A stretch of 64,000 nucleotides of DNA from Clostridiales bacterium. Lineage in GTDB: Bacteria > Bacillota > Clostridia > Christensenellales > UBA3700. The stretch lies in NCBI GenBank assembly GCA_015055975.1, contig SVHF01000001.1:134752-198751 (forward strand), written 5' to 3'. Every line of letters begins with the position of its first letter. Position 1 is the first letter of the stretch. Below are positions 8,341 to 45,838 of this stretch, one piece after another. The notes beneath the pieces were generated by a model. That model did not search any database, was not told the DNA's origin, and was given only the letters and a program-made list of their open reading frames with translations. The translations under genes and the position numbers were made by a program.

Positions 8341-9597
8341 ATGGGCATTACAGCAAAAGATCTACTTGAAAATAAGAAATTTTTAGCATCAACGAAGTTG
8401 CTTTATGGGGATAATAAAGAAGAATATCAAGCAAAAAGATATGAAAATCTTTATAACATTCACAAAAAGACTTATGGAGATAATTGCACATTTTTCTCAT
8501 CTTCAGGAAGAATAGAAGTTTGTGGAAACCATACAGATCACAACAACGGTAAGGTTTTATGTGCATCAATTTCTGTAGATACTATTGCTTGTGTTACTCC
8601 ACTTGAAGGAAAGATTATTATTGCTTCTATTGGATACCCAGTAGTTGAAGTAGATATAAGCGATTTGAATGTTCACAAAGAAGAATTTGGAAAGAGCGAA
8701 GGCCTTGTTCGCGGCGTTTTAGCATACTATAAGCAAAACGGATATAAAATCGGTGGCTTTGCTGCAACAACTACATCTGATGTTTTTAAAGGTGCAGGTG
8801 TTTCTTCATCAGCTTCTTTTGAACTTTTAGTTGCGGAAATTTTGAACGTAATGTTCAATGATGGAAAAATCGATGTAATAACAAAAGCAAAAGCTGCTCA
8901 TATGGGAGAAAGTGACTACTTCGGAAAGCCATGTGGTCTTTTAGATCAAAGCGCTATCTCAATTGGCGGAGTAAGCTATATTGATTTTAAATCAACTAAA
9001 GATCCTAAAGTTGAAAAAATCGATTGGCCATTCAATGATTTGGCTATCGTTATAACAAATACAGGTGGCGACCACTGTAATTTAACAGGTGAGTATGCGG
9101 CAATTAGGGAAGAAATGGAAGCTGTTGCTAAATTCTTCCACAAGAAAGTACTAAGAAAAGTAAAAGAAGAAGAATTCTATGAGAACATCTCGAAATTAAG
9201 AGAAGTTGTATCAGATAGAGCAATCGAAAGAGCAATACATTATTTCAACGAAAATAGACGTGTAGATATTGCTAAAAAAGCATTGCAAAAAGGACAAGAA
9301 AAGAAATTTATTGATATGATAAATCAATCTGGTATCAGTTCGTTAACAATGTTGCAAAACTGTTTCCCAAATGGTGCAGTTGCTCAACCAATTCCATTAG
9401 GAATTGCGCTATCTAAGCAAATAAAAGGCGTAAAGGCAGTTAGAGTTCACGGGGGTGGATTTGCTGGAACTATCATAGCTTATGTAGAAAAGAGTGAAGT
9501 TAAAAATTACGTTAAAGAGATGTCTAAAGTATTTGGAGATGAAAATGTGTTCCATATTGAAGTTAGAAATATTGGAGCATGTAAGGTAGAACTATAA
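8341..9597 (+). CDS. galK: Galactokinase-family GHMP kinase
   Basis: GRIEVCGNHTDHNNG (galactokinase signature variant), GHMP ATP loop GAGVSSSASF, C-terminal GGGFAGT. Divergent from galT. Confidence 0.75.
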   Translation: MGITAKDLLENKKFLASTKLLYGDNKEEYQAKRYENLYNIHKKTYGDNCTFFSSSGRIEVCGNHTDHNNGKVLCASISVDTIACVTPLEGKIIIASIGYPVVEVDISDLNVHKEEFGKSEGLVRGVLAYYKQNGYKIGGFAATTTSDVFKGAGVSSSASFELLVAEILNVMFNDGKIDVITKAKAAHMGESDYFGKPCGLLDQSAISIGGVSYIDFKSTKDPKVEKIDWPFNDLAIVITNTGGDHCNLTGEYAAIREEMEAVAKFFHKKVLRKVKEEEFYENISKLREVVSDRAIERAIHYFNENRRVDIAKKALQKGQEKKFIDMINQSGISSLTMLQNCFPNGAVAQPIPLGIALSKQIKGVKAVRVHGGGFAGTIIAYVEKSEVKNYVKEMSKVFGDENVFHIEVRNIGACKVEL

Positions 9598-33764: not shown

Positions 33765-34496
33765 ATGAACGCATCAGTATTAGACAGAGAACAAGCAAAT
33801 ACACAATCTCGTATGCCAAATCCTGGATATACAAGTTTGTATTCGCAAAGAGTGCAACCTATCTCTAGACCTGTTCAAGATATGACACCTAATCGTATGC
33901 CAAGTTATCAACCACAAAACGATTATTATACAAATGTTCAAAGCGATAATATTGATATGGGTGTTAGCGCATATGACATGCAAAACATGATCCAACATAA
34001 TGCTGCTCAATTCGCTCAAACTTATAGTTACAATCCTTATTACTATGAACAACAATACTATAACAATGTTAGTGCAAACGTAGAAACTCATCCAACGAAC
34101 TTCTACCAACCTGTACAAACAAATGATTATATGTATTACCAAGCTCCACAAATGGGACAAATCAATCAAGAATACGAATATGAAAAGACAATCCCACAAA
34201 AGAGCAAGGCTAAAAATAAGACAACTAAGGCTCTAATTGCTGTTTATTTCTTGATCGTTGCTATAGCAGCTGCATTAATAATTGTTAATGTTGTTGCTGC
34301 TGCAAGTGCTGCTACAGTTACTGCTGCAACAGTTGAAACAGCTGCTGCTTCTGAAGATGCTGTATATTATACAGTTGATGATAATGGTTCAATTTCAGAA
34401 ATGGCTAAGTCAGAGCAAGTAGTTGATTATGTATATGATACATCTACTAACTGGTTTGATAGATTGTGCGATAAGATAGGCAATATCTTAGGCTAA
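33765..34496 (+). CDS. Single-pass membrane protein with an N/Q/Y-rich cytoplasmic region, in the position normally held by ftsL
   Basis: Residues 1-145 are low-complexity (Y, Q, N, P). One TM (ALIAVYFLIVAIAAALIIVNVVAAA). About 60 aa external tail. No recognisable family. Confidence 0.4.
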   Translation: MNASVLDREQANTQSRMPNPGYTSLYSQRVQPISRPVQDMTPNRMPSYQPQNDYYTNVQSDNIDMGVSAYDMQNMIQHNAAQFAQTYSYNPYYYEQQYYNNVSANVETHPTNFYQPVQTNDYMYYQAPQMGQINQEYEYEKTIPQKSKAKNKTTKALIAVYFLIVAIAAALIIVNVVAAASAATVTAATVETAAASEDAVYYTVDDNGSISEMAKSEQVVDYVYDTSTNWFDRLCDKIGNILG

Positions 34497-36569: not shown

Positions 36570-37856
36570 ATGTCGGAGATTCAACCAAGAAATGCTAGAA
36601 TTCTAGTAATGGGCGTAGGCGGCGGTGGCTGCAACGCAGTAAACAGTATGATCGCATCAGGAGTAAACAGCGCAGAATTCGTTGCTGTTAATACAGATGC
36701 ACAAGCTTTAAATATGTCTAAAGCAGACATCAAAATTCCAATCGGAACATCTATAACAAGAGGTTTAGGTGCAGGATCAAGACCAGAAGTTGGTAAGCAA
36801 GCTGCAGATGAATCTCGTAATGAATTGGATAAGGCATTAGATAATGTTGATATGCTATTTGTAACTGCTGGTATGGGCGGCGGTACAGGAACAGGTGCTG
36901 CTCCAGTAATCGCTCAAATCGCAAGAGAAAAGGGCATAGTAACAGTTGGTGTCGTAACAAAGCCATTCGCTTTCGAAGGAAAGATCAGAGGTAAGAATGC
37001 TGAAGAAGGTATTTCAAATCTTAAGAAGGCTTGCGATACAGTAATTGTTATTCCAAATGATAACTTACTAAAAGTATTGGGACCAAAAGCAACAATGTTA
37101 GAAGCATTTAAGCATGCAGACTCAGTTTTAAGAGATGCAATTAAGGGCTTATCTGATTTGATTGCTGTTCCATCTATGATTAACGTTGACTTTGCTGACG
37201 TTAAGACAATTATGAAAGATAAAGGTATGGCTCACTTAGCTGTTGGCGTAGCAGAAGGCCCAGATAAGATTAAGTTAGCTGTTGATAGAGCTATCATGAG
37301 CGACCTATGCAATACAAATATTTCAGGTGCTACAGGTATCTTATTAAATGTAGTTGGTGGCCCATCATTAGGTATGATGGAAGCTATTCAAGCTTCAGAT
37401 CTTGTAAGACAATGCGTAGCTCCAGATGCATTAATCATCTTCGGTTTCGGTATTGAAGAAGATTATGGTGACAAGGTTCAAGTATTACTTGTTGCTACTG
37501 GATTTGAAGAAAATGCACAAATGGGAAGATTCGGTGCTACTAAGTACACAGGTGGTGTACCTCTAGATAACCAAGCATTTAAGTCTAAATATGGTTTACA
37601 ATCAGAACCACAAGTTCAACCAAGACAAGAAATGGTAGCTGATGCTAATCAATATGTTGCTCAACCAAATCAACAAATGCAACAAGCACAACCAGCTCAA
37701 CCACAAATGCAACCAACTCAACCACGTCCTCAATATTCATATGCATCAATATTCGGGACTCAACCACAACCACAACAAGCTCAACCAGCACAACCACAAC
37801 AATCTGGTAAAAAATTACCACCATGGTTTGCTAGATTAAGCAACAGAAACGTTTAA
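36570..37856 (+). CDS. ftsZ: Cell division protein FtsZ with a Q/P-rich C-terminal linker
   Basis: GVGGGGCNAVN, GGGTGTGAAPVIA tubulin signature, NVDFADV. Tail of QPQ repeats ending KKLPPWFARL. Confidence 0.97.
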   Translation: MSEIQPRNARILVMGVGGGGCNAVNSMIASGVNSAEFVAVNTDAQALNMSKADIKIPIGTSITRGLGAGSRPEVGKQAADESRNELDKALDNVDMLFVTAGMGGGTGTGAAPVIAQIAREKGIVTVGVVTKPFAFEGKIRGKNAEEGISNLKKACDTVIVIPNDNLLKVLGPKATMLEAFKHADSVLRDAIKGLSDLIAVPSMINVDFADVKTIMKDKGMAHLAVGVAEGPDKIKLAVDRAIMSDLCNTNISGATGILLNVVGGPSLGMMEAIQASDLVRQCVAPDALIIFGFGIEEDYGDKVQVLLVATGFEENAQMGRFGATKYTGGVPLDNQAFKSKYGLQSEPQVQPRQEMVADANQYVAQPNQQMQQAQPAQPQMQPTQPRPQYSYASIFGTQPQPQQAQPAQPQQSGKKLPPWFARLSNRNV

Positions 37857-38011: not shown

Positions 38012-38785
38012 ATGGTGGTTATGATAGATAAAAGAACTAAAGTTATCGGATTAAAGGAATTAGAACTTACTAATGACGATTTGTTTGTTAGAAAATCTAT
38101 CACGGGCATTTCAGAAGATTCAAAAGTAATAGTGGATGAAACTCATGTAGCAATATTGTTAAAAGATGGTATTGCGCTTGAAACATTAAGACCTGGTATT
38201 TATCCAATTTATTCAAAAAATACTTTATTTTCTAAATCAACAAAACTAGATACAACAAGACTTGAATTGTTCTTCATTTCGAAAACTGCAAAAGTTAGGA
38301 TTTTATGGGGTACTCCAGCACTTTTTGATATACATGATCCAATTTCTGGTATTGCAGCAAAGATGGGAGCTAGTGGAGAAATCGAAATTAGAATCAAAAA
38401 TCCAAGACAATTCTATATTGAAGTTGTAGGGTCAAATGCAAAGTTTACTGTTGAAGATTTAAAAGAAAGATTAAAGGGTGTAATTTTATCTAGAATTGAG
38501 CCAACAATTTCATCATATATTGAAGTTGATGAAGTACCTTTAGATAGAATCGGAGAAGAAAAACTATCTATTGCAAGATACTTACAACAAGATTTAAAGC
38601 GTGAACTTAGTCTAAATTATGGGCTTGAAGTTAGCAATGTTATAGTTAGCAATGTAAATATTGCGGATAAATACAAAGAAGAAGCAGCTACAAAACTAAG
38701 AGGCGAGATGGCATGTCCTCATTGTGGCGTAAAACTTGTTCCAGGAAGCAAGTTCTGTAATAACTGTGGTATGAAGGTGAGATAA
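38012..38785 (+). CDS. SPFH/Band-7 (COG4260, YdjI-like) protein with a C-terminal zinc ribbon
   Basis: Beta-rich N-terminal half and SPFH-like core (GASGEIEIRIKNPRQF..., LNYGLEVSNVIVSNVNI). C-terminal CPHCGVKLVPGSKFCNNCG. No TM helix. Confidence 0.65.
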   Translation: MVVMIDKRTKVIGLKELELTNDDLFVRKSITGISEDSKVIVDETHVAILLKDGIALETLRPGIYPIYSKNTLFSKSTKLDTTRLELFFISKTAKVRILWGTPALFDIHDPISGIAAKMGASGEIEIRIKNPRQFYIEVVGSNAKFTVEDLKERLKGVILSRIEPTISSYIEVDEVPLDRIGEEKLSIARYLQQDLKRELSLNYGLEVSNVIVSNVNIADKYKEEAATKLRGEMACPHCGVKLVPGSKFCNNCGMKVR

Positions 38786-39129
38786 TGGGTTTATTTTCAA
38801 AGAAAGGAATCAGTATAGATTTATCTAATGCTCATATCGCAAAGGTATTAGAGGTAAGACAAACGCTTGAAGCAAATGCTAATAAATTAAAGGCTATAAT
38901 GTTCCAAGCATCAGATAGCGAGAAAAAGATATTGGCTCAAGCTTATATAGATATCAAATATGCAAATCCATTAGTTGATGAAAAAATCGCACAAATAGAT
39001 GACGAAATATCAAAAACTTTAGATGATTTAAAGTTAAACTATGCTAGACGTGTTAAAAGTGAATTAACTATTGCGAATAAAATTAATAGTTTATTGGAAT
39101 TAATACAACAACGACAAGCGTTGGAGTAG
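38785..39129 (+). CDS. Small (114 aa) coiled-coil protein starting MGLFSKK
   Basis: All-helical heptad-like sequence. Shares the MGL(F/L) N-terminus with the next two genes. ATG overlaps the upstream stop (TAATG). Confidence 0.4.
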   Translation: MGLFSKKGISIDLSNAHIAKVLEVRQTLEANANKLKAIMFQASDSEKKILAQAYIDIKYANPLVDEKIAQIDDEISKTLDDLKLNYARRVKSELTIANKINSLLELIQQRQALE

Positions 39130-39140
39130 TAGGAGGATAA

Positions 39141-39767
39141 ATGGGATTATTATCATTTTTTAGATTTAGAAAACTAAAGAGAGAAGATGTTGTTGAATCA
39201 ATCGTAAAACTTGAAAAGCAACAACAAGAAATCGAAGATGGCATCGTAGACAAAGAGGCTCATATTCAAGAACTTTTAGCAAAAGGTAAGAAAGAAAAGT
39301 CTCAAGAAATACGTTTAATGTATGCTAAACAAATTAATTATCTAAAAGAACAAAAAACTAGAGATGCAAAACGTGGCATGTATTTAACATATAACATCAA
39401 CATGATGAACAAGTTAAAAGATGCTATGGAAGATAAAGAATTCTTTACTACATCTAGCAAGATCCAATTAAACAAGTTGCTTGCTGATCAAAAGGGCTTA
39501 GCTAGATACCTAAATAAGGCATTGAAGGTAAGAATTAAAGAAGAAGATGTATTAACTAATGCAGATGAAACATTCAACGAAGTTGCATCTATGTATGAAG
39601 ATAATGACACAATTTATGGAGCAGGCAAGACAGATGACCAATTATTGGCTATGTTTGAAGAAGGCGATGCTGCAGATGAATTAGAAACAATACAAAATAT
39701 AGATGAAAAGGGCGAAGCTGCCTTATTATCAAAAACATTTGAGGAGACAGACAATGGGACTATTTAA
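39141..39767 (+). CDS. ESCRT-III (Snf7/CHMP4-like) superfamily protein
   Basis: 208 aa. MGLLSFFRFRK N-terminus. Basic helical hairpin (ESIVKLEKQQQEIEDGIV...ELLAKGKKEKSQEIRLMYAKQINYLKEQ) parallels Snf7 alpha1-alpha2. Acidic C-terminal third. Confidence 0.6.
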   Translation: MGLLSFFRFRKLKREDVVESIVKLEKQQQEIEDGIVDKEAHIQELLAKGKKEKSQEIRLMYAKQINYLKEQKTRDAKRGMYLTYNINMMNKLKDAMEDKEFFTTSSKIQLNKLLADQKGLARYLNKALKVRIKEEDVLTNADETFNEVASMYEDNDTIYGAGKTDDQLLAMFEEGDAADELETIQNIDEKGEAALLSKTFEETDNGTI

Positions 39768-40341
39768 GAGCAAAGAAGAAAAACAAATCGAAGCAAAAAT
39801 GAAGGTCAAACAAACAATTAATAAGTTTAACAAGCAAATTTCTAAATTTGAAGAGCAAAAGAAGGTATATCTTGATGCTGCAAAGCGTGCTAAAAGACTT
39901 GGCCTTCCAGATGAAGTTAGATTAGCAATTACTGGATACCTATTGACAACAAATCAACAAAAGAGAGCACAAAAGATGCTTCTAAACTTTGAGATTGCTG
40001 CTCAAATGAAAGATATGGAAGTTATGAATGCTGAATTCTTGAAGAGCTTAGGCGATGTATCTAAGGATATGATAAAGCTTACAAACAATAAGGATTTTGC
40101 AAAAGTTCAAGCTCAATTTGAAAAGGCTATGGCTTTATCTCAAACAAGAGCAGAACAAATGGATATGTATCTTGAGTCTTCTCAAACAGAATTTGCAGCT
40201 CAAACAGGCGATGCAAGTTCAATTTCTGATGACGAAATCGATTCACTTGTTACAGAACTTGCTTCTCAAGACGAAATCAATGAATCTACAATTGATGCTC
40301 AATTAGAAAAGATTCACCAAAAAATGTCTCAAACATCATAA
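39754..40341 (+). CDS. ESCRT-III (CHMP3/Vps24- or Vps2-like) superfamily protein with a MIM-like C-terminus
   Basis: MGLFKSKEEK (compare human CHMP3 MGLFGKTQEK). KFEEQKKVYLDAAKRAKRLG...QQKRAQKMLLNF...MKDM...LGDVSKDM follows the CHMP helix pattern. Acidic tail ends IDAQLEKIHQKM. GAGGAG RBS. Starts 14 nt inside the previous gene. Confidence 0.65.
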   Translation: MGLFKSKEEKQIEAKMKVKQTINKFNKQISKFEEQKKVYLDAAKRAKRLGLPDEVRLAITGYLLTTNQQKRAQKMLLNFEIAAQMKDMEVMNAEFLKSLGDVSKDMIKLTNNKDFAKVQAQFEKAMALSQTRAEQMDMYLESSQTEFAAQTGDASSISDDEIDSLVTELASQDEINESTIDAQLEKIHQKMSQTS

Positions 40342-40348
40342 GAGGATT

Positions 40349-41785
40349 ATGGAAGATATAACAATTTTAAGAGATAAATATGACATTCTTTTAAAGAAAG
40401 CCGAAACAGCTGATGCTATGGGCAATTATTCTATTGCGTATAGAAATTATATGTTAGCTGCAGAAACTATGCTTAAAATTGCAAAAACATCTACGCCAGA
40501 ACTAAAGAAAGTTCAAATTAAGCGTGCAAATGATTTAGTTGCAAGAGCAGAACTTCTAGGCAATCCACCACAAACTCCAAAAAGATCTGCATCTCAACCT
40601 CAAGCTAAAGGTCAAGAAACTCAAAGAAATGAGGAAGAAGATACAGGAAAAGAGTGGGTAGGAGCTGAGATTCCAAATATCAAGTTCAAAGATGTAGCAG
40701 GATTGGATGAAGTTAAAAAGACTGTCATGACTAGAATGATAAATCCAGTTTTGTATCCAGATAAGTATGCAAAATATGGTAAAAAGGTAGGCGGTGGCGT
40801 TTTACTATATGGGCCTCCAGGAACAGGTAAGACATTTATCGCAAAAGCAATCGCCGGTGAAGTAGGCGCAACATTCTATGCAATTAAAGGCTCAGATATT
40901 ATGAGCAAATATGTAGGCGAATCAGAAAAGAACATTTCTTCTTTATTTGAAGCTGCTAAAGAACAAAAGTTATCTATCATCTTTATTGATGAAATGGATT
41001 CATTATTTGGAGAAAGAGGAAAAGATACACATAACGATAAGCGTGTTAATGAATTCCTACAACAAATCGATGGATTTGCTTCAAAGACGGATAACTTATT
41101 AATCTTGGGTGCTACAAATAGGCCATGGGATGTAGATTCAGCTGCAGTTAGATCTGGAAGATTTTCAGAAAAGATCTATGTTCCACTTCCTGATGAAAAG
41201 GCAAGAGAGTTTATGTTCAAGCATAACCTTGAAAATGTGCCACTAGGAAACGATGTAGATTTTGATAAATTAGTAGGCTTAACAGATGGCTATTCTGGTG
41301 CAGATATTGCCGAAATTTGCGATAGAGCAAAAGAAGATCCACTAAACATCTATATTAAAACAGATGTTGAAGAACCAGTATCTATGAAATACATAGAAGC
41401 TGCAATAAAGAAAGTAAAACCAACAGTTAGCAAGCTAGAAATCAGAAGATTTGAAGAATATGCAGGCATTAATAGAGATGAGGAAAAACCACAAGCTCCA
41501 ACTAAAGAGAAATGTGATGTTAAATTTGCAAGTACTCAAATTCAACTTTTACCAAATCAAAAGCCAGTATTAGAATTCACGCTATCTCGCGATTTTGATA
41601 AGGTGTATTTAGCTATTGATGGTTCTAACTATATTTGTAATAAAAAATTAGCATCATGGGAAAGCGAGCCTCTTAATATCAAAGATGCTGGCACTTATGA
41701 TGTAGAAATCACGTCGAATAACTTTAAAGCCGTAGGGAGAATTTCATTTATTAAAGGACTAGAAGAAGACGATCTAGGCCTATAA
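40349..41785 (+). CDS. Vps4/CdvC-like AAA ATPase: N-terminal MIT domain, one AAA cassette, extra C-terminal beta-rich domain
   Basis: MIT: KAETADAMGNYSIAYRNYMLAAETMLKIAK...IKRANDLVARAELL (compare Vps4 KAGNYEEAL..Y..A......K...I..K...YLDRAEKL). Walker A GPPGTGKT, Walker B IIFIDEMD, SRH GATNRPWDVDSAAVRSGRF. Confidence 0.8.
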   Translation: MEDITILRDKYDILLKKAETADAMGNYSIAYRNYMLAAETMLKIAKTSTPELKKVQIKRANDLVARAELLGNPPQTPKRSASQPQAKGQETQRNEEEDTGKEWVGAEIPNIKFKDVAGLDEVKKTVMTRMINPVLYPDKYAKYGKKVGGGVLLYGPPGTGKTFIAKAIAGEVGATFYAIKGSDIMSKYVGESEKNISSLFEAAKEQKLSIIFIDEMDSLFGERGKDTHNDKRVNEFLQQIDGFASKTDNLLILGATNRPWDVDSAAVRSGRFSEKIYVPLPDEKAREFMFKHNLENVPLGNDVDFDKLVGLTDGYSGADIAEICDRAKEDPLNIYIKTDVEEPVSMKYIEAAIKKVKPTVSKLEIRRFEEYAGINRDEEKPQAPTKEKCDVKFASTQIQLLPNQKPVLEFTLSRDFDKVYLAIDGSNYICNKKLASWESEPLNIKDAGTYDVEITSNNFKAVGRISFIKGLEEDDLGL

Positions 41786-41793
41786 GGTGAGTT

Positions 41794-43233
41794 ATGGCAG
41801 AAGTAGTAGCAAAATTAAAAGAATCATTTGATGGGATGATTGTTAAAAAGTCATCTTTGCAAGGTGTATTTTCATCATTGAATTTACCTGCGTTTATTAG
41901 AGATTGGTTCTTAAAAAGGTACGCAGATAAAGATGGTAGCGTTAATGTTAATTTTGTACTTGAAAAGATTAAAGACGTAATGCCAAGAAAGGATGAATGG
42001 AATTCTTATCTTGATAGACTCCTAAATGGAGAAAGGGTAAAGTTTCTAGCAAAGATTATTATTGATATCGATATAAAGACTGAAATAATAACTTTTGCGC
42101 TTCCAGATTTTGGCGTTTCATTTAAACAAACACACATTCCAAAATCTGTTTGGGATAAGCACAAAAAAGAATTGCTTGTAACAGACGGCGAGTTTTGGGG
42201 CATTTTGGATCTTGAATATAAGCAAATTCAAAATGGTAAAAAGCAAGAAGGAAAGATATCTTTAGTAGATTTTAAAGACTTTAGGCCATACAAGGTTGAT
42301 TTGGGATTCTTTAAAGAAGCAAGAAAGAACTTTGAAATTGACGAATGGATTGATGTTCTTCTTGGCGCAATTGATTACAACGCAAATGGATTTAAAGATG
42401 AAAATCAAAAAATAACAATGCTTACAAGATTGTTGCCATTTGTAGAAGAAAGATTGAATTTGATGGAACTTGCGCCAAAGGGAACAGGAAAGAGCTATAT
42501 CTTTTCTCAAATATCTAAAAAAGGATGGCTAGTTTCTGGTGGCGTTATGACTAGAGCCAAGATGTTCTATGATATGAATAAACATCAAGATGGCTTAGTA
42601 TCTTTTTATGATTATGTAGCGCTAGATGAAATATCTACAATTAAGTTCCCAGATATCGATGAGATGCGTGGAGCTATGAAAGGATATTTAGAAGCTGGAA
42701 CATATAACGTTGGAAATAAAGCAGGTTCTGGAAAAGCAGGTGTTGTTTTGCTAGGTAATATCCGTGAAGAGAAGATGGATGTTAACAACAACATGCTAGA
42801 AGAATTGCCACCACTTTTTGAAGATTCTGCATTAATTGATAGATTCCATGGATTTATCAAAGGCTGGGATGTTCCAAGAATGAACGAAGACATGAAAGTT
42901 AACGATTGGGCATTAAATACAGAATATTTCTCTGAGATAATGCATGCATTAAGAGAAGATGTTATAGAAAAAGCAATCGTTGATGAATTGGTCGAAGTTC
43001 CAAAGGATGCAGATACAAGAGACACAAAAGCAATTAAGAGAATTGCAACAGCATATGTAAAACTATTCTTCCCACACTGGACAAGTGTAGATGATGTAAA
43101 TAAGGAAGAATTTAAAAAATACTGTCTAGATAGAGCAGTAGAAATGAGAAAAATAATTAAAACTCAATTAGGAATCATGGATAGCGAATATAAAAAGCAT
43201 CCAGTTCAAGAGTTTAAGATAAAGGGAGAGTAA
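41794..43233 (+). CDS. BrxL-type (TIGR02688/PF13337-like) AAA+ ATPase lacking the Lon-protease domain
   Basis: Blocks EWIDVLLGAI, RLLPFVEERLNLMELAPKGTGKSYIF, LVSGGVMTRAKMFYDM, YDYVALDEIS and IDRFHGFIKGWDVPRM match BrxL as I recall it. 479 aa, ending before where the Lon domain would begin. Confidence 0.8.
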   Translation: MAEVVAKLKESFDGMIVKKSSLQGVFSSLNLPAFIRDWFLKRYADKDGSVNVNFVLEKIKDVMPRKDEWNSYLDRLLNGERVKFLAKIIIDIDIKTEIITFALPDFGVSFKQTHIPKSVWDKHKKELLVTDGEFWGILDLEYKQIQNGKKQEGKISLVDFKDFRPYKVDLGFFKEARKNFEIDEWIDVLLGAIDYNANGFKDENQKITMLTRLLPFVEERLNLMELAPKGTGKSYIFSQISKKGWLVSGGVMTRAKMFYDMNKHQDGLVSFYDYVALDEISTIKFPDIDEMRGAMKGYLEAGTYNVGNKAGSGKAGVVLLGNIREEKMDVNNNMLEELPPLFEDSALIDRFHGFIKGWDVPRMNEDMKVNDWALNTEYFSEIMHALREDVIEKAIVDELVEVPKDADTRDTKAIKRIATAYVKLFFPHWTSVDDVNKEEFKKYCLDRAVEMRKIIKTQLGIMDSEYKKHPVQEFKIKGE

Positions 43234-45377
43234 TGAAGTTAACAGCGTTTCAATGCCCAATATGTATGAGTACGCATTTTAGAAAAGAGCAAGATGCTTA
43301 TGTTTGCGAATCATGCGGTAATACTTATACAGAAAAACAAGCAGATAGCCAAATGTTTATCGATCTTAGAATCGCAAATAGACATAGACAATTTGCTGAG
43401 TTTTCTAAAGCAAAAGAAATATATACAGAAATCATCGCAAAATACAAAGATGAAGAAGATGTTTCTTCTGCTTATTGGGGTTTATTGCTATGCGATCAAT
43501 CAGTAATGCTTGAAGTTGACAATCAAGGCCAACTATTCCCATCGTTTTATAGAGTTAAATCTATGCCAATTGAAGAAACTGATGCTTATAAAAAGTTGAT
43601 GAAATACGTCAAAAAGCATGCTGAAGAAAAGTTGGACGATTATCAAGAGAGAATAAATATCATCGAATCAGCTAGAGATAAGGCCAATGTTATAGCAAAT
43701 TCTTCAAAACCATATGATGTATTCATTTGTTTTAAGAAAACTCAACTTGATTCAGATATGGTAACTCCAGATTATGATGTAGCAAATGAAATCTATAATG
43801 AGCTATCTACAAAATATAAAGTATTCTATTCTGAAAAGTCTTTAAGAAATATTAGAGTTAGAGATTTTGAGCCAAATATCTATTATGGACTTTATACTGC
43901 AAAAGTAATGCTTATCATTTGCTCAAAGCGTGAATTTTTGGAATCTCATTGGATGAAAAATGAGTGGAAGAGATTCATGGAATTAAATAAATCTAGAGAT
44001 CAAGATTATAAGAGCATTATTCCTATCTTTATAGACAACTTTACTGAAGAAGATTTGCCAGATGAACTTGCACATAAGCAAGCTCTAAAATATGGTATAT
44101 CTTTAATTTCAGATATCGATAAAACTCTACAAAAGATTATTAACCCAATCGATAAAGATGAAGAGCAACAAAAGCAAATTGAAATGCTTATGGCTAATCA
44201 AAAGAAAATCTTAGAGGAGTGGTCAAAGCGTGAAAGCCAAACAATTGAGTTTAGCCAAGAGCAAGGAAAACCAAGATTGACTCCACAAGAAGAAAAAATT
44301 AGATCAATTTTAAAGCTAGCAAAAGTTAACATCGAAGATTTGGGTAATTTCGACGAAGCAGAAGGACAAGTTAGAAAAGCACAAGAAATTGATGCTGAAA
44401 ATTATGTAACTTGGTTCTACAAATTGATGATAGATTTCAAGGCTCAATCAATTGATGAGCTTATTATGCATGATAACTTCAGAGATAGCGTAAATTATAG
44501 ACTATTTGTTAAATATGCAAATAAAGCAGGAAAAGGCGATGATGTTCAAAAGCTTGAAGGAGCTAGAGAAGATTTCTTAAGAGCCTCAGCTCAAAAAGTA
44601 AATGATTTATTGCAAGCTTTAAAAGATAATCCAAATCCACTTGAAGAAGATGTCGGAAAGATAAAACTAGTTTACGAATCACTTCCTAAAGAAGCTCAAC
44701 AATATGTCGTTGATTTGAAAGAAACAATTTTAAACGCAAGAAAACAAATGCGTGAAAACAAAATTGGCAACTTTAAAACAAGACTAACTATGGTTAGCAA
44801 TAAAGAGCATCCAAATTACGACGATATTTTGAAGATTGAGGAAGAATATGAGAATTTGTCCGAAGATGAGCGAGATTTGGCTGGAGATGGCTATAAACAA
44901 GTCATAACGGATGCATCTAATAAGATGAAGGATGCAAAAGTTCAAAAAGTTCAACAAGCTTTGATAACAATTGATAATCAAGAGAATCCTTCTCGTGATG
45001 ATTTGATTCATATAGAGAAGATGTATAACGAATTAGAAGACAAGTCTAAAGCTTCTGTTCATGACTATAAAGAGATAATGCTAAGAGCATACGATAAAAA
45101 GTATATTAACGATGCTAAATTGTTATCTAAATACTTAACAAAATTGCCAACAGAAAAAGTTCCAAATAGAGATATCTATACGAAACTTGAAAATAGATAT
45201 AAAGCACTTCCAAAGAAATACAGATTAATGGTAGAGCATATTGAATATTTGGACGATTATTACGATAAGTTAATAGCATCTGAAGGCGGAAAAGTAACAA
45301 CTGTTGAAAAACAACAAGAAAATATAAAGACAACAAAGGGAGAGCCAGCGAAAAAGAAAAAACACTGGTTGTGGTAG
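43233..45377 (+). CDS. Zinc-ribbon / TIR-domain / TPR-like and four-repeat helical protein
   Basis: CPICMS...CESCG ribbon (residues 8-29). TIR core from YDVFICF (residue 161) to SHWMKNEWKRF with candidate catalytic Glu244 (43962-43964). Four 58-60 aa repeats at residues 466-680. Confidence 0.8.
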   Translation: MKLTAFQCPICMSTHFRKEQDAYVCESCGNTYTEKQADSQMFIDLRIANRHRQFAEFSKAKEIYTEIIAKYKDEEDVSSAYWGLLLCDQSVMLEVDNQGQLFPSFYRVKSMPIEETDAYKKLMKYVKKHAEEKLDDYQERINIIESARDKANVIANSSKPYDVFICFKKTQLDSDMVTPDYDVANEIYNELSTKYKVFYSEKSLRNIRVRDFEPNIYYGLYTAKVMLIICSKREFLESHWMKNEWKRFMELNKSRDQDYKSIIPIFIDNFTEEDLPDELAHKQALKYGISLISDIDKTLQKIINPIDKDEEQQKQIEMLMANQKKILEEWSKRESQTIEFSQEQGKPRLTPQEEKIRSILKLAKVNIEDLGNFDEAEGQVRKAQEIDAENYVTWFYKLMIDFKAQSIDELIMHDNFRDSVNYRLFVKYANKAGKGDDVQKLEGAREDFLRASAQKVNDLLQALKDNPNPLEEDVGKIKLVYESLPKEAQQYVVDLKETILNARKQMRENKIGNFKTRLTMVSNKEHPNYDDILKIEEEYENLSEDERDLAGDGYKQVITDASNKMKDAKVQKVQQALITIDNQENPSRDDLIHIEKMYNELEDKSKASVHDYKEIMLRAYDKKYINDAKLLSKYLTKLPTEKVPNRDIYTKLENRYKALPKKYRLMVEHIEYLDDYYDKLIASEGGKVTTVEKQQENIKTTKGEPAKKKKHWLW

Positions 45378-45379
45378 AT

Positions 45380-45838
45380 ATGAAGTGTATATTTTGTGGA
45401 TCAATTGAAGATAAGGTTATTGATAGTAGATTAAATGAAGATGGTACATCAATAAGACGTAGACGTGAATGCTGTTCATGTGGCAGACGTTTTACAACTT
45501 ATGAAACAATTGAATTAACTCCAATCATGGTAGTTAAGAAAAACGGAGAAAGACAAGAATATTCAAGAAACAAATTAAAACAAGGTATTGTTAATGCTTG
45601 CGCAAAGCGTCCTGTTTCTATGGAAACTATAGATAAGCTAGTTGCTGAAGTAGAAAAGAAGATAAATAATTCTTTGGAACAAGAAATCAAATCATCTGTA
45701 ATTGGTGAATATGTAATGGAAGGTTTAAAGGATATAGACGATGTTGCATATATTAGATTTGCGGCTGTATATAGAGAATTTAAAGATATTAATAGCTGGT
45801 TAAGCGAAATTAAAGACCTTGTAAAAGAGAAGAAATAA
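45380..45838 (+). CDS. nrdR: Transcriptional repressor NrdR
   Basis: MKCIFCG...CCSCGRRFTTYE zinc ribbon plus ATP-cone. ATG lies 2 nt after the TIR gene stop. Confidence 0.95.
   Translation: MKCIFCGSIEDKVIDSRLNEDGTSIRRRRECCSCGRRFTTYETIELTPIMVVKKNGERQEYSRNKLKQGIVNACAKRPVSMETIDKLVAEVEKKINNSLEQEIKSSVIGEYVMEGLKDIDDVAYIRFAAVYREFKDINSWLSEIKDLVKEKK

What the first reader, a model, noticed from the sequence alone, without database searches (positions are those of the whole stretch)
40349..41785. Bacterial MIT-domain Vps4/CdvC-like AAA ATPase with an additional C-terminal beta-rich domain
Seen in the sequence:
- Residues 1-70 form a three-helix MIT-like segment (GNYSIAYRNYMLAAETMLKIAK...IKRANDLVARAELL).
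- A P/Q-rich linker follows.
- There is a single AAA cassette: GPPGTGKT at 40811-40834, IIFIDEMD, and GATNRPWDVDSAAVRSGRF. The last is very close to the Vps4 block GATNIPWVLDSAIRRRF as I recall it.
- An extra roughly 90 aa domain (41501-41758; VKFASTQIQLLPNQ...TYDVEITSNNFKAVGRISF) looks like an Ig/beta-sandwich and is not part of canonical Vps4.

Inference: this is the disassembly or remodelling motor for the adjacent ESCRT-III-like proteins. The extra domain could couple it to the BrxL-like or TIR proteins, or to a phage or cell-envelope cue.
Basis: partly seen in the sequence, partly recalled or inferred. Interest (0 to 1): 0.75.

Follow-up and report, generated by a model that had tools for sequence, protein, structure and literature searches.

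The report
Bacterial Vps4-like ATPase in ESCRT-III operon
An uncultured gut Clostridia bacterium carries an operon pairing ESCRT-III-type membrane-remodelling proteins with a Vps4-like ATPase, a pairing that recent reviews say bacteria lack, and here it is linked to immune-type genes (BrxL, TIR).

Summary
ORF 40349-41785 (478 aa) has four parts:
- an N-terminal MIT three-helix bundle;
- a disordered P/Q-rich linker;
- one catalytically intact AAA cassette with a C-terminal helix;
- an extra Ig-like beta-sandwich ending in a conserved acidic tail (EEDDLGL).

The AAA domain is not a member of the Vps4/CdvC family. It belongs to a distinct bacterial MIT-AAA clade that branches as sister to the Vps4/katanin/spastin ("meiotic") clade. 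It keeps the longer, Cdc48-type second region of homology (R-S-G-R-F).

The gene closes a conserved five-gene module: SPFH+Zn-ribbon, a small coiled-coil protein, two ~200-aa coiled-coil proteins, and the MIT-AAA. The last coiled-coil family is a true ESCRT-III/Snf7 relative: its profile hits CHMP2A at E 2.5e-6, and 25 of 74 members hit Pfam Snf7.

The module sits in unrelated neighbourhoods in many Clostridia, so its position next to ftsZ looks incidental. The Ig-like domain co-occurs perfectly with a short BrxL gene (7 loci with both, 7 with neither). TIR proteins and trypsin-like proteases are frequent neighbours.

The most likely role is an ATP-driven motor that disassembles ESCRT-III-like polymers in a membrane-associated, defence-linked system. 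I found no published description of it.

The parts
38012..38785 (+). SPFH/Band-7 (Band_7_1) protein with a C-terminal zinc ribbon; first gene of the conserved module
   Evidence: Pfam Band_7_1 4e-19 and Zn_Ribbon_1 5.5e-7. The same gene heads the module in L001-L005, L019, L085-L088, L090, L092 and L093.
38785..39129 (+). Small coiled-coil protein CC1 (114 aa), N-terminus MGLF; conserved position, fold and family not established
   Evidence: A protein of about 110-160 aa occupies this position in every module locus. The alignment is weak, 13-28% identity. No Pfam hit.
39141..39767 (+). Coiled-coil protein CC2 (208 aa), N-terminus MGLL; possible divergent ESCRT-III paralogue with a conserved C-terminal IYG..DD(E/Q)LLAMFE motif
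   Evidence: Six-locus alignment at 38-48% identity. hhalign against the CC3 family is colinear over 162 columns, E 8e-4, but probability is only 24%. No PDB or Pfam hit.
39754..40341 (+). CC3 (195 aa from the internal ATG): ESCRT-III/Snf7-superfamily protein with invariant N-terminal MGLFK and a conserved acidic C-terminal amphipathic helix. Its start overlaps the end of CC2 by 14 nt.
   Evidence: The family profile hits CHMP2A at E 2.5e-6 (positions 7-143 of 195), plus CHMP3, CHMP1B and CdvB. 25 of 74 family representatives hit Pfam Snf7, best E 9.6e-7. 522 representative clusters. MGLFK is invariant.
40349..41785 (+). MIT-AAA-Ig ATPase (478 aa), the finding itself
40358..40561 (+). MIT three-helix bundle (residues 4-71)
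   Evidence: AF2 helices 4-24, 27-47 and 50-71, pLDDT above 90. Pfam MIT 29.1 bits, E 1e-6; 14 of 32 family N-termini hit MIT. The profile hits solved MIT domains over their full length: 2mpk at 3.5e-6, plus 2w2u, calpain-7 and VPS4B.
40568..40645 (+). Disordered P/Q-rich linker (residues 74-99)
   Evidence: pLDDT below 50. Variable in length and sequence across homologues.
40661..41473 (+). Single AAA cassette with lid and C-terminal helix (residues 105-375)
   Evidence: Pfam AAA 2e-42, AAA_lid_3 and Vps4_C. Motifs are invariant. Phylogeny and HMM competition.
41519..41755 (+). Ig-like beta-sandwich domain (residues 391-469)
   Evidence: AF2 pLDDT 90.9, eight strands. Foldseek finds only Ig-like domains, TM 0.5-0.6. 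Present only in homologues whose locus also encodes the short BrxL (against 14, 21, 52, 53, 88, 89).
41756..41782 (+). Conserved acidic-hydrophobic C-terminal tail (FIKGLEEDDLGL; family consensus KG-x-E-E/N-D-hydrophobic-G/D-hydrophobic)
   Evidence: Alignment A7: G85 and E88 are nearly invariant, and the tail is present in 31 of 32 sequences. pLDDT is low, so it is probably a docking peptide.
41794..43233 (+). Short BrxL-like AAA+ protein (479 aa: BrxL_N plus BrxL ATPase, no Lon-protease domain)
   Evidence: PADLOC BrxL PDLC02505, 680.8 bits, full length. NCBIfam TIGR02688, 439.9 bits against a cut-off of 329. Pfam BrxL_ATPase 1.7e-116.
43233..45377 (+). Zn-ribbon - TIR - long helical-repeat protein (714 aa)
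   Evidence: Pfam TIR_2 8e-11, residues 164-287. TIR proteins flank the module in L001, L004, L005, L085, L088 and L090.

Best explanation
The gene encodes the ATP-driven motor of a bacterial ESCRT-like module.

**Shown**
- It combines an MIT domain, a flexible linker, one complete AAA translocase cassette and a C-terminal oligomerisation helix. That is the Vps4 architecture.
- It is the last gene of a conserved operon. The operon encodes a cytosolic SPFH/Band-7 protein with a zinc ribbon, a small coiled-coil protein, and two ~200-aa coiled-coil proteins. At least one of these is an ESCRT-III/Snf7 homologue.

**Inferred**
- The ESCRT-III-like proteins polymerise on the inner face of the membrane. 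This would use their invariant N-terminal MGLF-plus-basic motif and the SPFH scaffold, much as B. subtilis YdjI/SamI recruits PspA.
- The MIT domain captures their acidic C-terminal amphipathic helices.
- The hexameric AAA ring threads subunits through its pore (K-Y-V-G loop). This remodels or disassembles the polymer.

**Specific to this locus**
- The ATPase carries an extra Ig-like domain and an acidic tail that occur only when a short BrxL-like AAA+ gene follows. I infer that this appendage docks BrxL, or the BrxL/TIR pair, to the motor.
- TIR proteins, BrxL and trypsin-like proteases recur next to the module. The module is patchily distributed in unrelated genomic neighbourhoods. For these reasons the whole island (38012-45377) is most likely a membrane-associated anti-phage or abortive-infection system, or a damage-response system with an immune output.

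Evolutionarily, the ATPase belongs to a separate bacterial MIT-AAA lineage, sister to the Vps4/katanin/spastin clade. It is not an archaeal Vps4 that was recently transferred.
For: **Architecture**
- Searches support the MIT domain.
- Searches show the intact catalytic and pore residues.
- One search gives Vps4_C above its cut-off.
- NCBIfam CdvC aligns residues 17-371 to positions 17-364 of its 370-position model, colinear end to end.

**ESCRT-III neighbour**
- The CC3 profile hits CHMP2A at 2.5e-6, CHMP3 at 8e-4, and CHMP1B and CdvB more weakly.
- 25 of 74 family members hit Pfam Snf7.
- An archaeal CC3 homologue lies beside a Vps4-like ATPase on a Thermococcus plasmid.

**Operon conservation**
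- The same order, SPFH / CC / CC / CC / AAA, occurs in L001-L005, L019, L085-L088, L090, L092 and L093, each with different flanking genes.

**Phylogeny**
- Bacterial MIT-AAA are monophyletic (99% and 96.5%).
- They group with the meiotic clade at 67.5% and 99%, and with Cdc48 D2 at 0.5%.
- They share N-x-P-W and SK[YW]xGE[SA]EK with that clade.

**Coupling to BrxL**
- The Ig-like domain and BrxL are both present in the window, L001/L002, L005, L085, L086, L090 and L091.
- Both are absent in L003, L093, L004, L019, L087, L088 and L092.
- The long and short forms interleave in the tree.

**Defence flavour**
- BrxL.
- TIR proteins at seven loci.
- Trypsin-like proteases at four loci.
- Recombinases beside L091.
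- CC3-domain fusions to RuvB-like ATPase plus NERD nuclease, or to FtsK/HerA-like ATPases.
Against: - No physical evidence shows that the MIT domain binds the neighbours' C-termini. Multimer modelling was not available.
- CC1 has no detectable family, and CC2 is only weakly linked to ESCRT-III (hhalign probability 24%).
- The AAA domain is as similar to Cdc48 D2 as to Vps4 by HMM score. Its best solved-structure matches are p97 D2. It could therefore be a general unfoldase.
- No model in PADLOC v2 covers the SPFH or coiled-coil genes, so no defence phenotype is on record.
- Core-only loci exist (L087). The module therefore has a function independent of BrxL and TIR.
- The trees are distance-based only, and one of the two analyses gives moderate support (67.5%).
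- The Ig/BrxL correlation rests on 14 loci that are not phylogenetically independent.
Confidence: 0.55

Rival explanations
1. Housekeeping membrane-stress system. The SPFH / ESCRT-III-like / MIT-AAA module would be a Psp-like envelope repair machine, a Clostridial analogue of pspA-ydjGHI. BrxL and TIR would be unrelated defence genes that merely sit next to it in a variable island.
For: - Core-only locus L087 has no BrxL, TIR or protease.
- The SPFH protein is of the Band_7_1 type. This is the type that recruits PspA in B. subtilis (Scholz 2021, cited in PMC10936438; bioRxiv 10.64898/2026.02.06.704340).
- Membrane repair is thought to be the ancestral ESCRT-III role (PMC7619361).
Against: - BrxL and TIR are not random neighbours. 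The ATPase has a dedicated extra domain that appears only with BrxL (7 of 7 against 0 of 7).
- In L004 and L088 the TIR genes are inserted inside the operon, between CC3 and the ATPase.
- The module is patchy and lies in a different neighbourhood in each genome. That is typical of accessory islands rather than housekeeping genes.
Confidence: 0.2
2. Immune reset or activation switch. The MIT-AAA would act mainly on the TIR and/or BrxL assemblies, not on ESCRT-III polymers. It would keep the effector off or recycle it, as Trip13 does for HORMA in CBASS. The coiled-coil proteins would serve only as a scaffold or sensor.
For: - PADLOC finds similarity to the defence AAA proteins IetA and TRIP13.
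- The AAA domain is Cdc48-D2-like in score, consistent with a general unfoldase.
- TIR genes are interleaved with the ATPase gene in L004 and L088.
- Tandem-AAA variants exist (L004, L019).
Against: - The ATPase is equally conserved in loci without any TIR or BrxL (L087; L003, L092 and L093 carry a 1255-1276 aa unknown protein instead).
- Every characterised MIT domain binds ESCRT-III tails (established knowledge; PMC9477494).
- The PADLOC hits cover only the generic AAA core.
Confidence: 0.15
3. Cell-division accessory. Because it lies directly downstream of ftsA-ftsZ, the module would be a Cdv-like division or abscission system working with FtsZ.
For: It sits at the 3' end of the dcw cluster, between ftsZ (36570-37856) and nrdR (45371-45838). 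CdvB and CdvC divide Crenarchaeota (PMC10936438).
Against: None of the 13 other loci examined lies in a dcw cluster. Their flanks include PFK, DapB, ABC transporters, glycosyltransferases and recombinases. The distribution is patchy, and the module associates with TIR and BrxL.
Confidence: 0.03

Closest known systems
Vps4 / CdvC (ESCRT-IV; meiotic clade of classical AAA ATPases)
   Same: - N-terminal MIT domain, flexible linker, single AAA cassette and C-terminal helix (Vps4_C).
- The SK-aromatic-x-GE-S/A-EK pore-loop context and the N-x-P-W motif.
- Encoded next to ESCRT-III genes.
- The AAA domain branches next to this clade.
   Different: - It keeps the two extra SRH residues (R-S-G-R-F) that all Vps4, CdvC, katanin and spastin sequences compared lack.
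- It has no beta-domain insertion in the lid.
- NCBIfam CdvC scores 215 bits against a cut-off of 650, whereas true thaumarchaeal CdvC scores about 500 bits.
- It carries an extra Ig-like domain and an acidic tail.
- The host is bacterial, and the operon partners are SPFH, BrxL and TIR.
Cdc48/p97/VAT D2 domain
   Same: - Best solved-structure match: 38-40% identity, 213 bits for D2 alone.
- Same SRH length (RxGRF).
- Same C-terminal helix.
- p97 also ends in an acidic-hydrophobic docking tail (DDDLYG, from my own knowledge).
- Tandem-AAA variants of this family exist (L004, L019).
   Different: - A single AAA domain.
- An MIT domain in place of the double-psi-barrel N domain.
- It groups with Cdc48 D2 in only 0.5% of bootstrap replicates.
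B. subtilis pspA-ydjGHI (samGHI) and PspA/Vipp1 systems
   Same: A cytosolic Band_7_1-type SPFH protein is encoded with an ESCRT-III-superfamily protein. The function is probably at the membrane (PMC10936438; bioRxiv 10.64898/2026.02.06.704340).
   Different: - The ESCRT-III proteins here are Snf7/CHMP-like, not PspA_IM30. There is no PspA Pfam hit, and the profile's best hits are CHMP2A and CHMP3.
- A dedicated MIT-AAA ATPase is present. Psp systems lack one.
Archaeal non-Asgard ESCRT variants (Makarova et al. 2024, e.g. 'Meth_adaptin', with an SPFH + coiled-coil + Zn-ribbon protein) and the Thermococcus plasmid module
   Same: An SPFH protein with a zinc ribbon sits beside ESCRT-III and a Vps4-like ATPase (PMC10936438). 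A CC3 homologue at 32% identity lies next to a Vps4-like ATPase on plasmid NZ_CP014751.
   Different: - The archaeal ATPase there has the meiotic-type SRH deletion.
- Its partners are a Ser/Thr kinase and a PP2C phosphatase, or adaptin-like proteins, rather than BrxL and TIR.
- That paper states that such systems are not found in bacteria.
BREX BrxL and TIR-based defence systems (Thoeris-like NADase effectors)
   Same: A BrxL_N plus BrxL ATPase protein scores above the curated cut-offs. The TIR_2 domain carries the W-x-x-x-E motif in the sequence ESHWMKNEW. I read this from the sequence; its catalytic meaning comes from my own knowledge.
   Different: - No other BREX gene (PglX, PglZ, BrxA/B/C) is present in the island.
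- BrxL lacks the Lon-protease domain.
- No ThsA-like partner is present.
- PADLOC has no system containing these partners.

Membership tests
Vps4/CdvC (ESCRT-IV) | N-terminal MIT three-helix bundle | tested here: met
   AF2 gives three helices at pLDDT above 90. Pfam MIT scores 29.1 bits, E 1e-6, just under the cut-off of 30; 14 of 32 family N-termini hit MIT. The profile hits solved MIT domains.
Vps4/CdvC (ESCRT-IV) | Single AAA cassette with intact Walker A/B, sensor 1, arginine fingers and an aromatic pore loop 1 | tested here: met
   The motifs are invariant across 69 homologues. Alignment.
Vps4/CdvC (ESCRT-IV) | C-terminal helix after the lid (Vps4_C) | tested here: met
   Pfam Vps4_C scores 24.8 bits against a cut-off of 21.3. 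AF2 places a helix at 362-372. The feature is also present in Cdc48 D2, so it is not exclusive to Vps4.
Vps4/CdvC (ESCRT-IV) | Meiotic-clade SRH with the two-residue deletion (..RR-RF.. rather than ..RPGRF..) | tested here: not met
   The window has AAVRSGRF. ScVps4, three crenarchaeal and two thaumarchaeal CdvC, katanin and spastin all have the gap.
Vps4/CdvC (ESCRT-IV) | Beta-domain insertion in the small AAA subdomain (the Vta1-binding site in eukaryotic Vps4) | tested here: not met
   No insertion lies between the lid and the C-terminal helix (AF2 elements). The ScVps4 envelope is interrupted relative to the family HMM, whereas the window's is not.
Vps4/CdvC (ESCRT-IV) | Scores as a family member with the curated model, and falls inside the clade in a tree | tested here: not met
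   NCBIfam CdvC scores 215 bits against a cut-off of 650. In the NJ trees the family is sister to, not inside, the Vps4/CdvC/katanin/spastin group. HMM competition ties with Cdc48 D2.
Vps4/CdvC (ESCRT-IV) | Genomic linkage to ESCRT-III genes | tested here: met
   CC3 is a Snf7-superfamily protein. The linkage is conserved in at least 13 loci.
Vps4/CdvC (ESCRT-IV) | The MIT domain binds MIM motifs of ESCRT-III tails, and the ATPase disassembles ESCRT-III polymers | not testable with these tools
   This needs multimer modelling or biochemistry. Only conserved acidic amphipathic C-termini were seen.
Meiotic clade of classical AAA (Vps4, katanin, spastin, fidgetin) | The AAA domain groups with the clade rather than with Cdc48 D1/D2, PAN or FtsH | tested here: inconclusive
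   It groups as sister to the clade at 67.5% and 99% NJ bootstrap. HMM scores tie with D2, and the clade's SRH deletion is absent. A stem or sister position fits best.
Cdc48/p97 family | Tandem D1-D2 AAA domains with an N-terminal double-psi barrel | tested here: not met
   The window has one AAA domain and an MIT N-terminus. NCBIfam CDC48 scores 229 bits against a cut-off of 802.
ESCRT-III / Snf7 superfamily (for neighbour CC3, 39754-40341) | Profile-level homology to Snf7/CHMP proteins across helices alpha1-alpha4 | tested here: met
   The family profile hits CHMP2A at E 2.5e-6 (7-143 against 4-143), and also CHMP3, CHMP1B and CdvB. 25 of 74 members hit Pfam Snf7, best E 9.6e-7. The window protein alone is below threshold, E 0.87.
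ESCRT-III / Snf7 superfamily (for neighbour CC3, 39754-40341) | Polymerisation on membranes | not testable with these tools
   Only the invariant N-terminal MGLFK motif hints at membrane insertion.
BREX system | BrxL together with PglX methyltransferase, PglZ and BrxA/B/C | tested here: not met
   Only a BrxL-like gene is present. The other island genes have no BREX hits in PADLOC.

The most novel reading that the evidence does not exclude
Bacteria possess their own ESCRT-like machine: Snf7-type ESCRT-III paralogues, an SPFH scaffold and an MIT-AAA motor. Its ATPase would represent the stem lineage from which the Vps4/katanin/spastin clade arose, before the SRH deletion. In Clostridia this machine would have been recruited as an immune organelle. 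On phage attack, ESCRT-III-like polymers at the membrane would work with BrxL (DNA-engaging AAA+) and a TIR NADase. They would either pinch off or seal the injured membrane or entry site, or trigger abortive infection. The Ig-like domain and acidic tail of the motor would be the physical link to BrxL.
Probability: 0.25. Interest if true: 0.9.

Novelty: new variant of a known kind. Interest (0 to 1): 0.8.

Why it matters
Current reviews state that a Vps4-like ATPase is absent from bacteria. They also state that the ESCRT-III plus Vps4 pairing is confined to archaea and eukaryotes (PMC7619361; PMC10936438). The one comparative study that mentions bacterial Vps4-like genes describes rare transfers in which Snf7 has been displaced (PMC11237479).

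This is instead a large bacterial family. The ESCRT-III-like partner alone has 522 representative clusters. In it, Snf7-type proteins, an SPFH scaffold and an MIT-AAA motor are inherited together.

If the mechanism holds, three things follow:
- It offers a bacterial model for ATP-driven ESCRT-III remodelling, although the hosts seen here are uncultured.
- The ATPase is an intermediate form between Cdc48 D2 and Vps4, which bears on how the meiotic AAA clade arose.
- It links ESCRT-type membrane remodelling to TIR and BrxL immunity, a combination not present in current defence-system catalogues.

Tried and rejected
- **Single-sequence searches of CC2 and CC3 against solved structures** found nothing relevant. 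A narrow CC3 profile also failed. Only the diverse profile built from the exhaustive representative search reached CHMP proteins.
- **Whole-model Foldseek of the ATPase** returned only p97 D2 hits. It said nothing about the MIT or Ig-like domains, so the Ig-like domain was remodelled alone.
- **Ranking against PDB by whole-sequence score is misleading.** Two-domain p97 chains sum two hits, and the same happens for a genuine CdvC query. I therefore did not take "best hit p97" as clade membership, and built trees and clade HMMs instead.
- **The genome-contig scan** was dominated by archaeal Cdc48, because one search pattern was the generic Walker A. It was still useful as a source of reference sequences.
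- **The Cdv-like division role** suggested by the ftsZ adjacency was rejected on context (see rival explanations).
- **Phage or plasmid carriage** was not seen: no CC3 homologue in 50,697 phage records, and only one archaeal plasmid hit.
- **CC1 could not be assigned to any family.** The L003 protein at 8377-8736, first aligned with CC1, is probably not its homologue.
- **Literature searches** for a prior description of this bacterial system found none in the held library. Papers outside that library cannot be excluded.
Full report
**1. The observation**

ORF 40349-41785 (+) encodes 478 aa.
- Walker A GPPGTGKT is residues 155-162, i.e. 40811-40834.
- Walker B is IIFIDEMD.
- The SRH block is GATNRPWDVDSAAVRSGRF.
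- All catalytic residues are invariant in an alignment of 69 homologues: K161/T162, D214/E215, sensor N257, and arginine fingers R268 and R271. So are pore-loop residues K187, V189 and G190.

Pfam finds AAA (2e-42), AAA_lid_3, Vps4_C (24.8 bits, above its 21.3 cut-off) and MIT (24.6 bits in the full protein).

AlphaFold2 on the 69-sequence alignment gives the following:
- a three-helix bundle, helices 4-24, 27-47 and 50-71, pLDDT above 90;
- a disordered linker, 74-99;
- an AAA fold with a terminal helix at 362-372;
- a beta-rich domain, 391-469, pLDDT above 90.

**2. The MIT domain**

- The isolated N-terminus scores 29.1 bits (E 1e-6) against Pfam MIT, a hair under the cut-off of 30.
- 14 of 32 diverse family N-termini hit MIT, best E 1.4e-7.
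- A profile of these N-termini matches solved MIT domains over their whole length: Saprolegnia chitin synthase MIT 2mpk (3.5e-6), Sulfolobus Vps4 MIT 2w2u/2v6y, calpain-7 MIT, and VPS4B/SKD1 MIT.
- Designed TPR proteins match only a 23-residue stretch, as expected for the TPR-like MIT fold.

The first refutation criterion, that the N-terminus would not model as MIT, is therefore not met.

**3. The C-terminal domain**

Modelled alone with 32 homologous segments, it reaches pLDDT 90.9 with eight strands. Foldseek against the PDB returns only Ig-like domains, with modest scores: CD147, titin M4/M10, MLCK and twitchin Ig, at TM 0.5-0.6 and E about 1e-3. It is a generic Ig-like sandwich with no specific family.

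The alignment also shows a conserved tail after the last strand. It is KGLEEDDLGL in the window, and the consensus is KG-x-E-(E/N)-D-hydrophobic-(G/D)-hydrophobic. The tail is modelled with low confidence, which is typical of a docking peptide.

**4. Which AAA clade?**

Raw similarity points to Cdc48/p97 D2: 213 bits for D2 alone, and 38-40% identity by Foldseek. NCBIfam gives CDC48 229, CdvC 215, FtsH 211 and PAN 204 bits, all far below their cut-offs. Whole-sequence ranking is biased by two-domain chains, and even a true CdvC ranks p97 ahead of eukaryotic Vps4. I therefore assembled reference AAA domains:
- crenarchaeal CdvC, taken from PDB alignments;
- thaumarchaeal CdvC, PAN, FtsH and many Cdc48 proteins from fetched loci, checked with NCBIfam;

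Results:
- Neighbour-joining with 200 bootstraps makes the bacterial MIT-AAA proteins monophyletic at 99%. These come from Clostridia, Borkfalkia, Chloroflexota and Phycisphaerae.
- It places them next to the Vps4/CdvC/katanin/spastin clade at 67.5%.
- A second analysis removed long branches and used G-INS-i alignment and BLOSUM-based distances. It gives 96.5% for bacterial monophyly and 99% for the bacterial-plus-meiotic split, against 0.5% for a grouping with Cdc48 D2.
- Clade HMMs built without the bacterial sequences tie: meiotic 264, D2 260, D1 193 and FtsH/PAN 198 bits.

The alignment explains the ambiguity.
- The family shares N-x-P-W and the SK-[YW]-x-GE-[SA]-EK pore-loop context with the meiotic clade.
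- It keeps the two SRH residues (R-S/P-G-R-F) that every meiotic-clade sequence compared has lost.
- It has no Vps4 beta-domain insertion.

The AAA domain is thus Vps4-like in architecture and nearest to the meiotic clade, but it is a separate lineage, sister or stem to that clade, and not a Vps4/CdvC orthologue. The second refutation criterion, grouping with FtsH/ClpX, is not met either.

**5. The neighbours**

Upstream lie:
- a Band_7_1 SPFH protein with a zinc ribbon (38012-38785);
- a 114-aa coiled-coil protein, CC1;
- a 208-aa coiled-coil protein, CC2;
- a 195-aa protein, CC3, read from the internal ATG at 39754.

All three coiled-coil proteins start MGL(F/L). MGLFK is invariant in the CC3 family.

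Alone, CC3 gives nothing significant. An exhaustive profile search found 522 representative clusters. A diverse 74-sequence profile hits human CHMP2A (E 2.5e-6, nearly full length), CHMP3, CHMP1B and archaeal CdvB. 25 of the 74 members hit Pfam Snf7, best E 9.6e-7. CC3 is therefore a bona fide ESCRT-III/Snf7-superfamily protein of the Vps2/Vps24/Did2 type, not a PspA.

CC2 aligns colinearly with the CC3 family by hhalign, but weakly (E 8e-4, probability 24%). CC1 remains unassigned.

**6. Conservation and context**

The order SPFH-Znr / CC1 / CC2 / CC3 / MIT-AAA recurs in Clostridia and Christensenellales contigs, with completely different flanking genes. The loci are L001-L005, L019, L085-L088, L090, L092 and L093. 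None of these is in a dcw cluster. The window's position between ftsZ and nrdR therefore looks like an island insertion.

Accessory genes vary:
- **Short BrxL:** window, L001/L002, L005, L085, L086, L090, L091.
- **TIR proteins:** window, L001, L004, L005 (a 1590-aa protein), L085, L088, L090.
- **Trypsin-like proteases:** L085, L088, L090, L091.
- **A 1255-1276 aa unknown protein:** L003, L092, L093.
- **Nothing extra:** L087.

In L004 and L088 the TIR genes sit between CC3 and the ATPase.

The Ig-like domain plus tail is present in all seven loci that encode BrxL. It is absent from all seven that do not. The long and short ATPases also interleave in the tree, which argues for repeated joint gain or loss.

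**7. Relatives elsewhere**

- MIT-AAA proteins of about 375 aa occur in Chloroflexota (L006, L007), a Phycisphaerae MAG (L008) and Borkfalkia (L009).
- L007 encodes a Snf7-like protein (Pfam E 2e-4) and two MIT-AAA paralogues. One of them has the meiotic-type SRH deletion.
- A Thermococcus plasmid encodes a CC3 homologue (32% identity; Snf7 E 4e-4) beside a Vps4-like ATPase with the meiotic SRH, a Ser/Thr kinase and a PP2C phosphatase. This resembles the archaeal ESCRT variants of Makarova et al. (PMC10936438).
- Some CC3-family domains are fused to RuvB-like AAA+ modules, with or without a NERD nuclease, or to FtsK/HerA-like ATPases. This is a defence-like theme.

**8. Mechanism**

Shown:
- the domain architecture;
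- intact catalytic and pore residues;
- ESCRT-III homology of CC3;
- operon conservation;
- the Ig-BrxL co-occurrence.

Inferred:
- ESCRT-III-like polymers form at the membrane with the SPFH scaffold, by analogy with YdjI/SamI and PspA in B. subtilis.
- The MIT domain binds their acidic amphipathic C-termini.
- The hexameric AAA ring extracts subunits.
- The Ig-like domain and tail recruit BrxL.
- TIR provides an NAD-directed output.

The balance of evidence favours a defence-linked membrane system (confidence 0.55) over three alternatives: a purely housekeeping Psp-like system (0.2), a Trip13-like reset switch acting on TIR or BrxL (0.15), and a division role (0.03).

**9. Novelty**

- PADLOC v2 has no model for the SPFH or coiled-coil genes.
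- A 2025 review says a Vps4-like ATPase "appears absent in bacteria" (PMC7619361).
- The PSP survey reports only sporadic Vps4-like transfers in which Snf7 is displaced (and supplement).
- Seven literature searches found no description of this system.

I rate it a new variant of a known kind: an ESCRT-III plus MIT-AAA machine, in bacteria, with a distinct ATPase lineage and immune-type partners. Interest is high. The main caveat is that everything functional is inferred from sequence and context.

Noticed in passing
L007:2244-3440 and L007:4146-5288 (Chloroflexota MAG JBAXBF010000128.1): One bacterial locus carries two MIT-AAA paralogues flanking a Snf7-like protein (L007:3465-4124, Pfam Snf7 E 2e-4). 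The 398-aa paralogue has the meiotic-type two-residue SRH deletion and clusters with spastin and CdvC. The 380-aa one is of the bacterial type. So genuine Vps4-type ATPases also exist in bacteria.
   Followed up: partly
Proteins P0282, P0290, P0293-P0296, P0301, P0308, P0325, P0342: The ESCRT-III-like CC3 domain occurs as an N-terminal fusion to other modules. These are RuvB-like AAA+ with a winged helix, sometimes plus a NERD nuclease, or FtsK/HerA-like ATPases. The pairing suggests membrane-polymer-tethered DNA translocases or nucleases.
   Followed up: partly
L089 (Thermococcus peptonophilus plasmid NZ_CP014751.1, 11010-25471): An archaeal plasmid module contains three hypothetical proteins, a Ser/Thr kinase, a Vps4-like ATPase (Vps4_C 7.7e-9), a PP2C phosphatase and a Snf7-like protein. 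The Snf7-like protein is 32% identical to the window's CC3.
   Followed up: partly
L085:9550-10449, L088:9273-10091, L090:9496-10257, L091:1706-2431: A trypsin-like serine protease gene often follows the MIT-AAA gene, usually just before the short BrxL. Canonical BrxL carries a Lon-protease domain that the short form lacks. The separate protease may replace it. The window has no such gene.
   Followed up: no
window 43233-45377: The TIR protein has an N-terminal CxxC...CxxC zinc ribbon. Its TIR domain has the motif ESHWMKNEW (W-x-x-x-E, the usual place of the catalytic Glu). It then carries about four ~40-aa helical repeats (...P(N/S)xDD(I/L)xxIExxYxxL...) and a basic C-terminal tail, KKKKHWLW.
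   Followed up: no
L003:11167-14997, L092:9120-12887, L093:6858-10688: In loci with the short ATPase and no BrxL or TIR, a 1255-1276 aa protein directly follows the ATPase gene. It has no Pfam domain apart from a faint TPR. It is an alternative, uncharacterised accessory partner.
   Followed up: no
L004:10001-12142 and L019:7275-9362: Variants of the ATPase with about 700 aa exist. L004 has two AAA cassettes. L019 has an MIT domain, a region not recognised by the family HMM, and one AAA cassette. They look like intermediate forms toward a Cdc48-like tandem arrangement.
   Followed up: partly
L009:320-9976 (Candidatus Borkfalkia MAG): A 3218-aa protein with an N-terminal zinc ribbon lies immediately upstream of a 373-aa MIT-AAA gene. 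No SPFH or ESCRT-III-like genes were noted nearby.
   Followed up: no
window 33765-34496: Within the dcw cluster, between rsmH and the FtsQ-like gene, lies a 243-aa protein with a long Q/N/Y-rich N-terminal region and one predicted transmembrane segment. This is where FtsL or a PBP would normally be expected.
   Followed up: no
window 37560-37856 (C-terminal part of FtsZ): FtsZ carries an unusually long Q/P-rich C-terminal linker (QPQ repeats) before the conserved terminal peptide.
   Followed up: no
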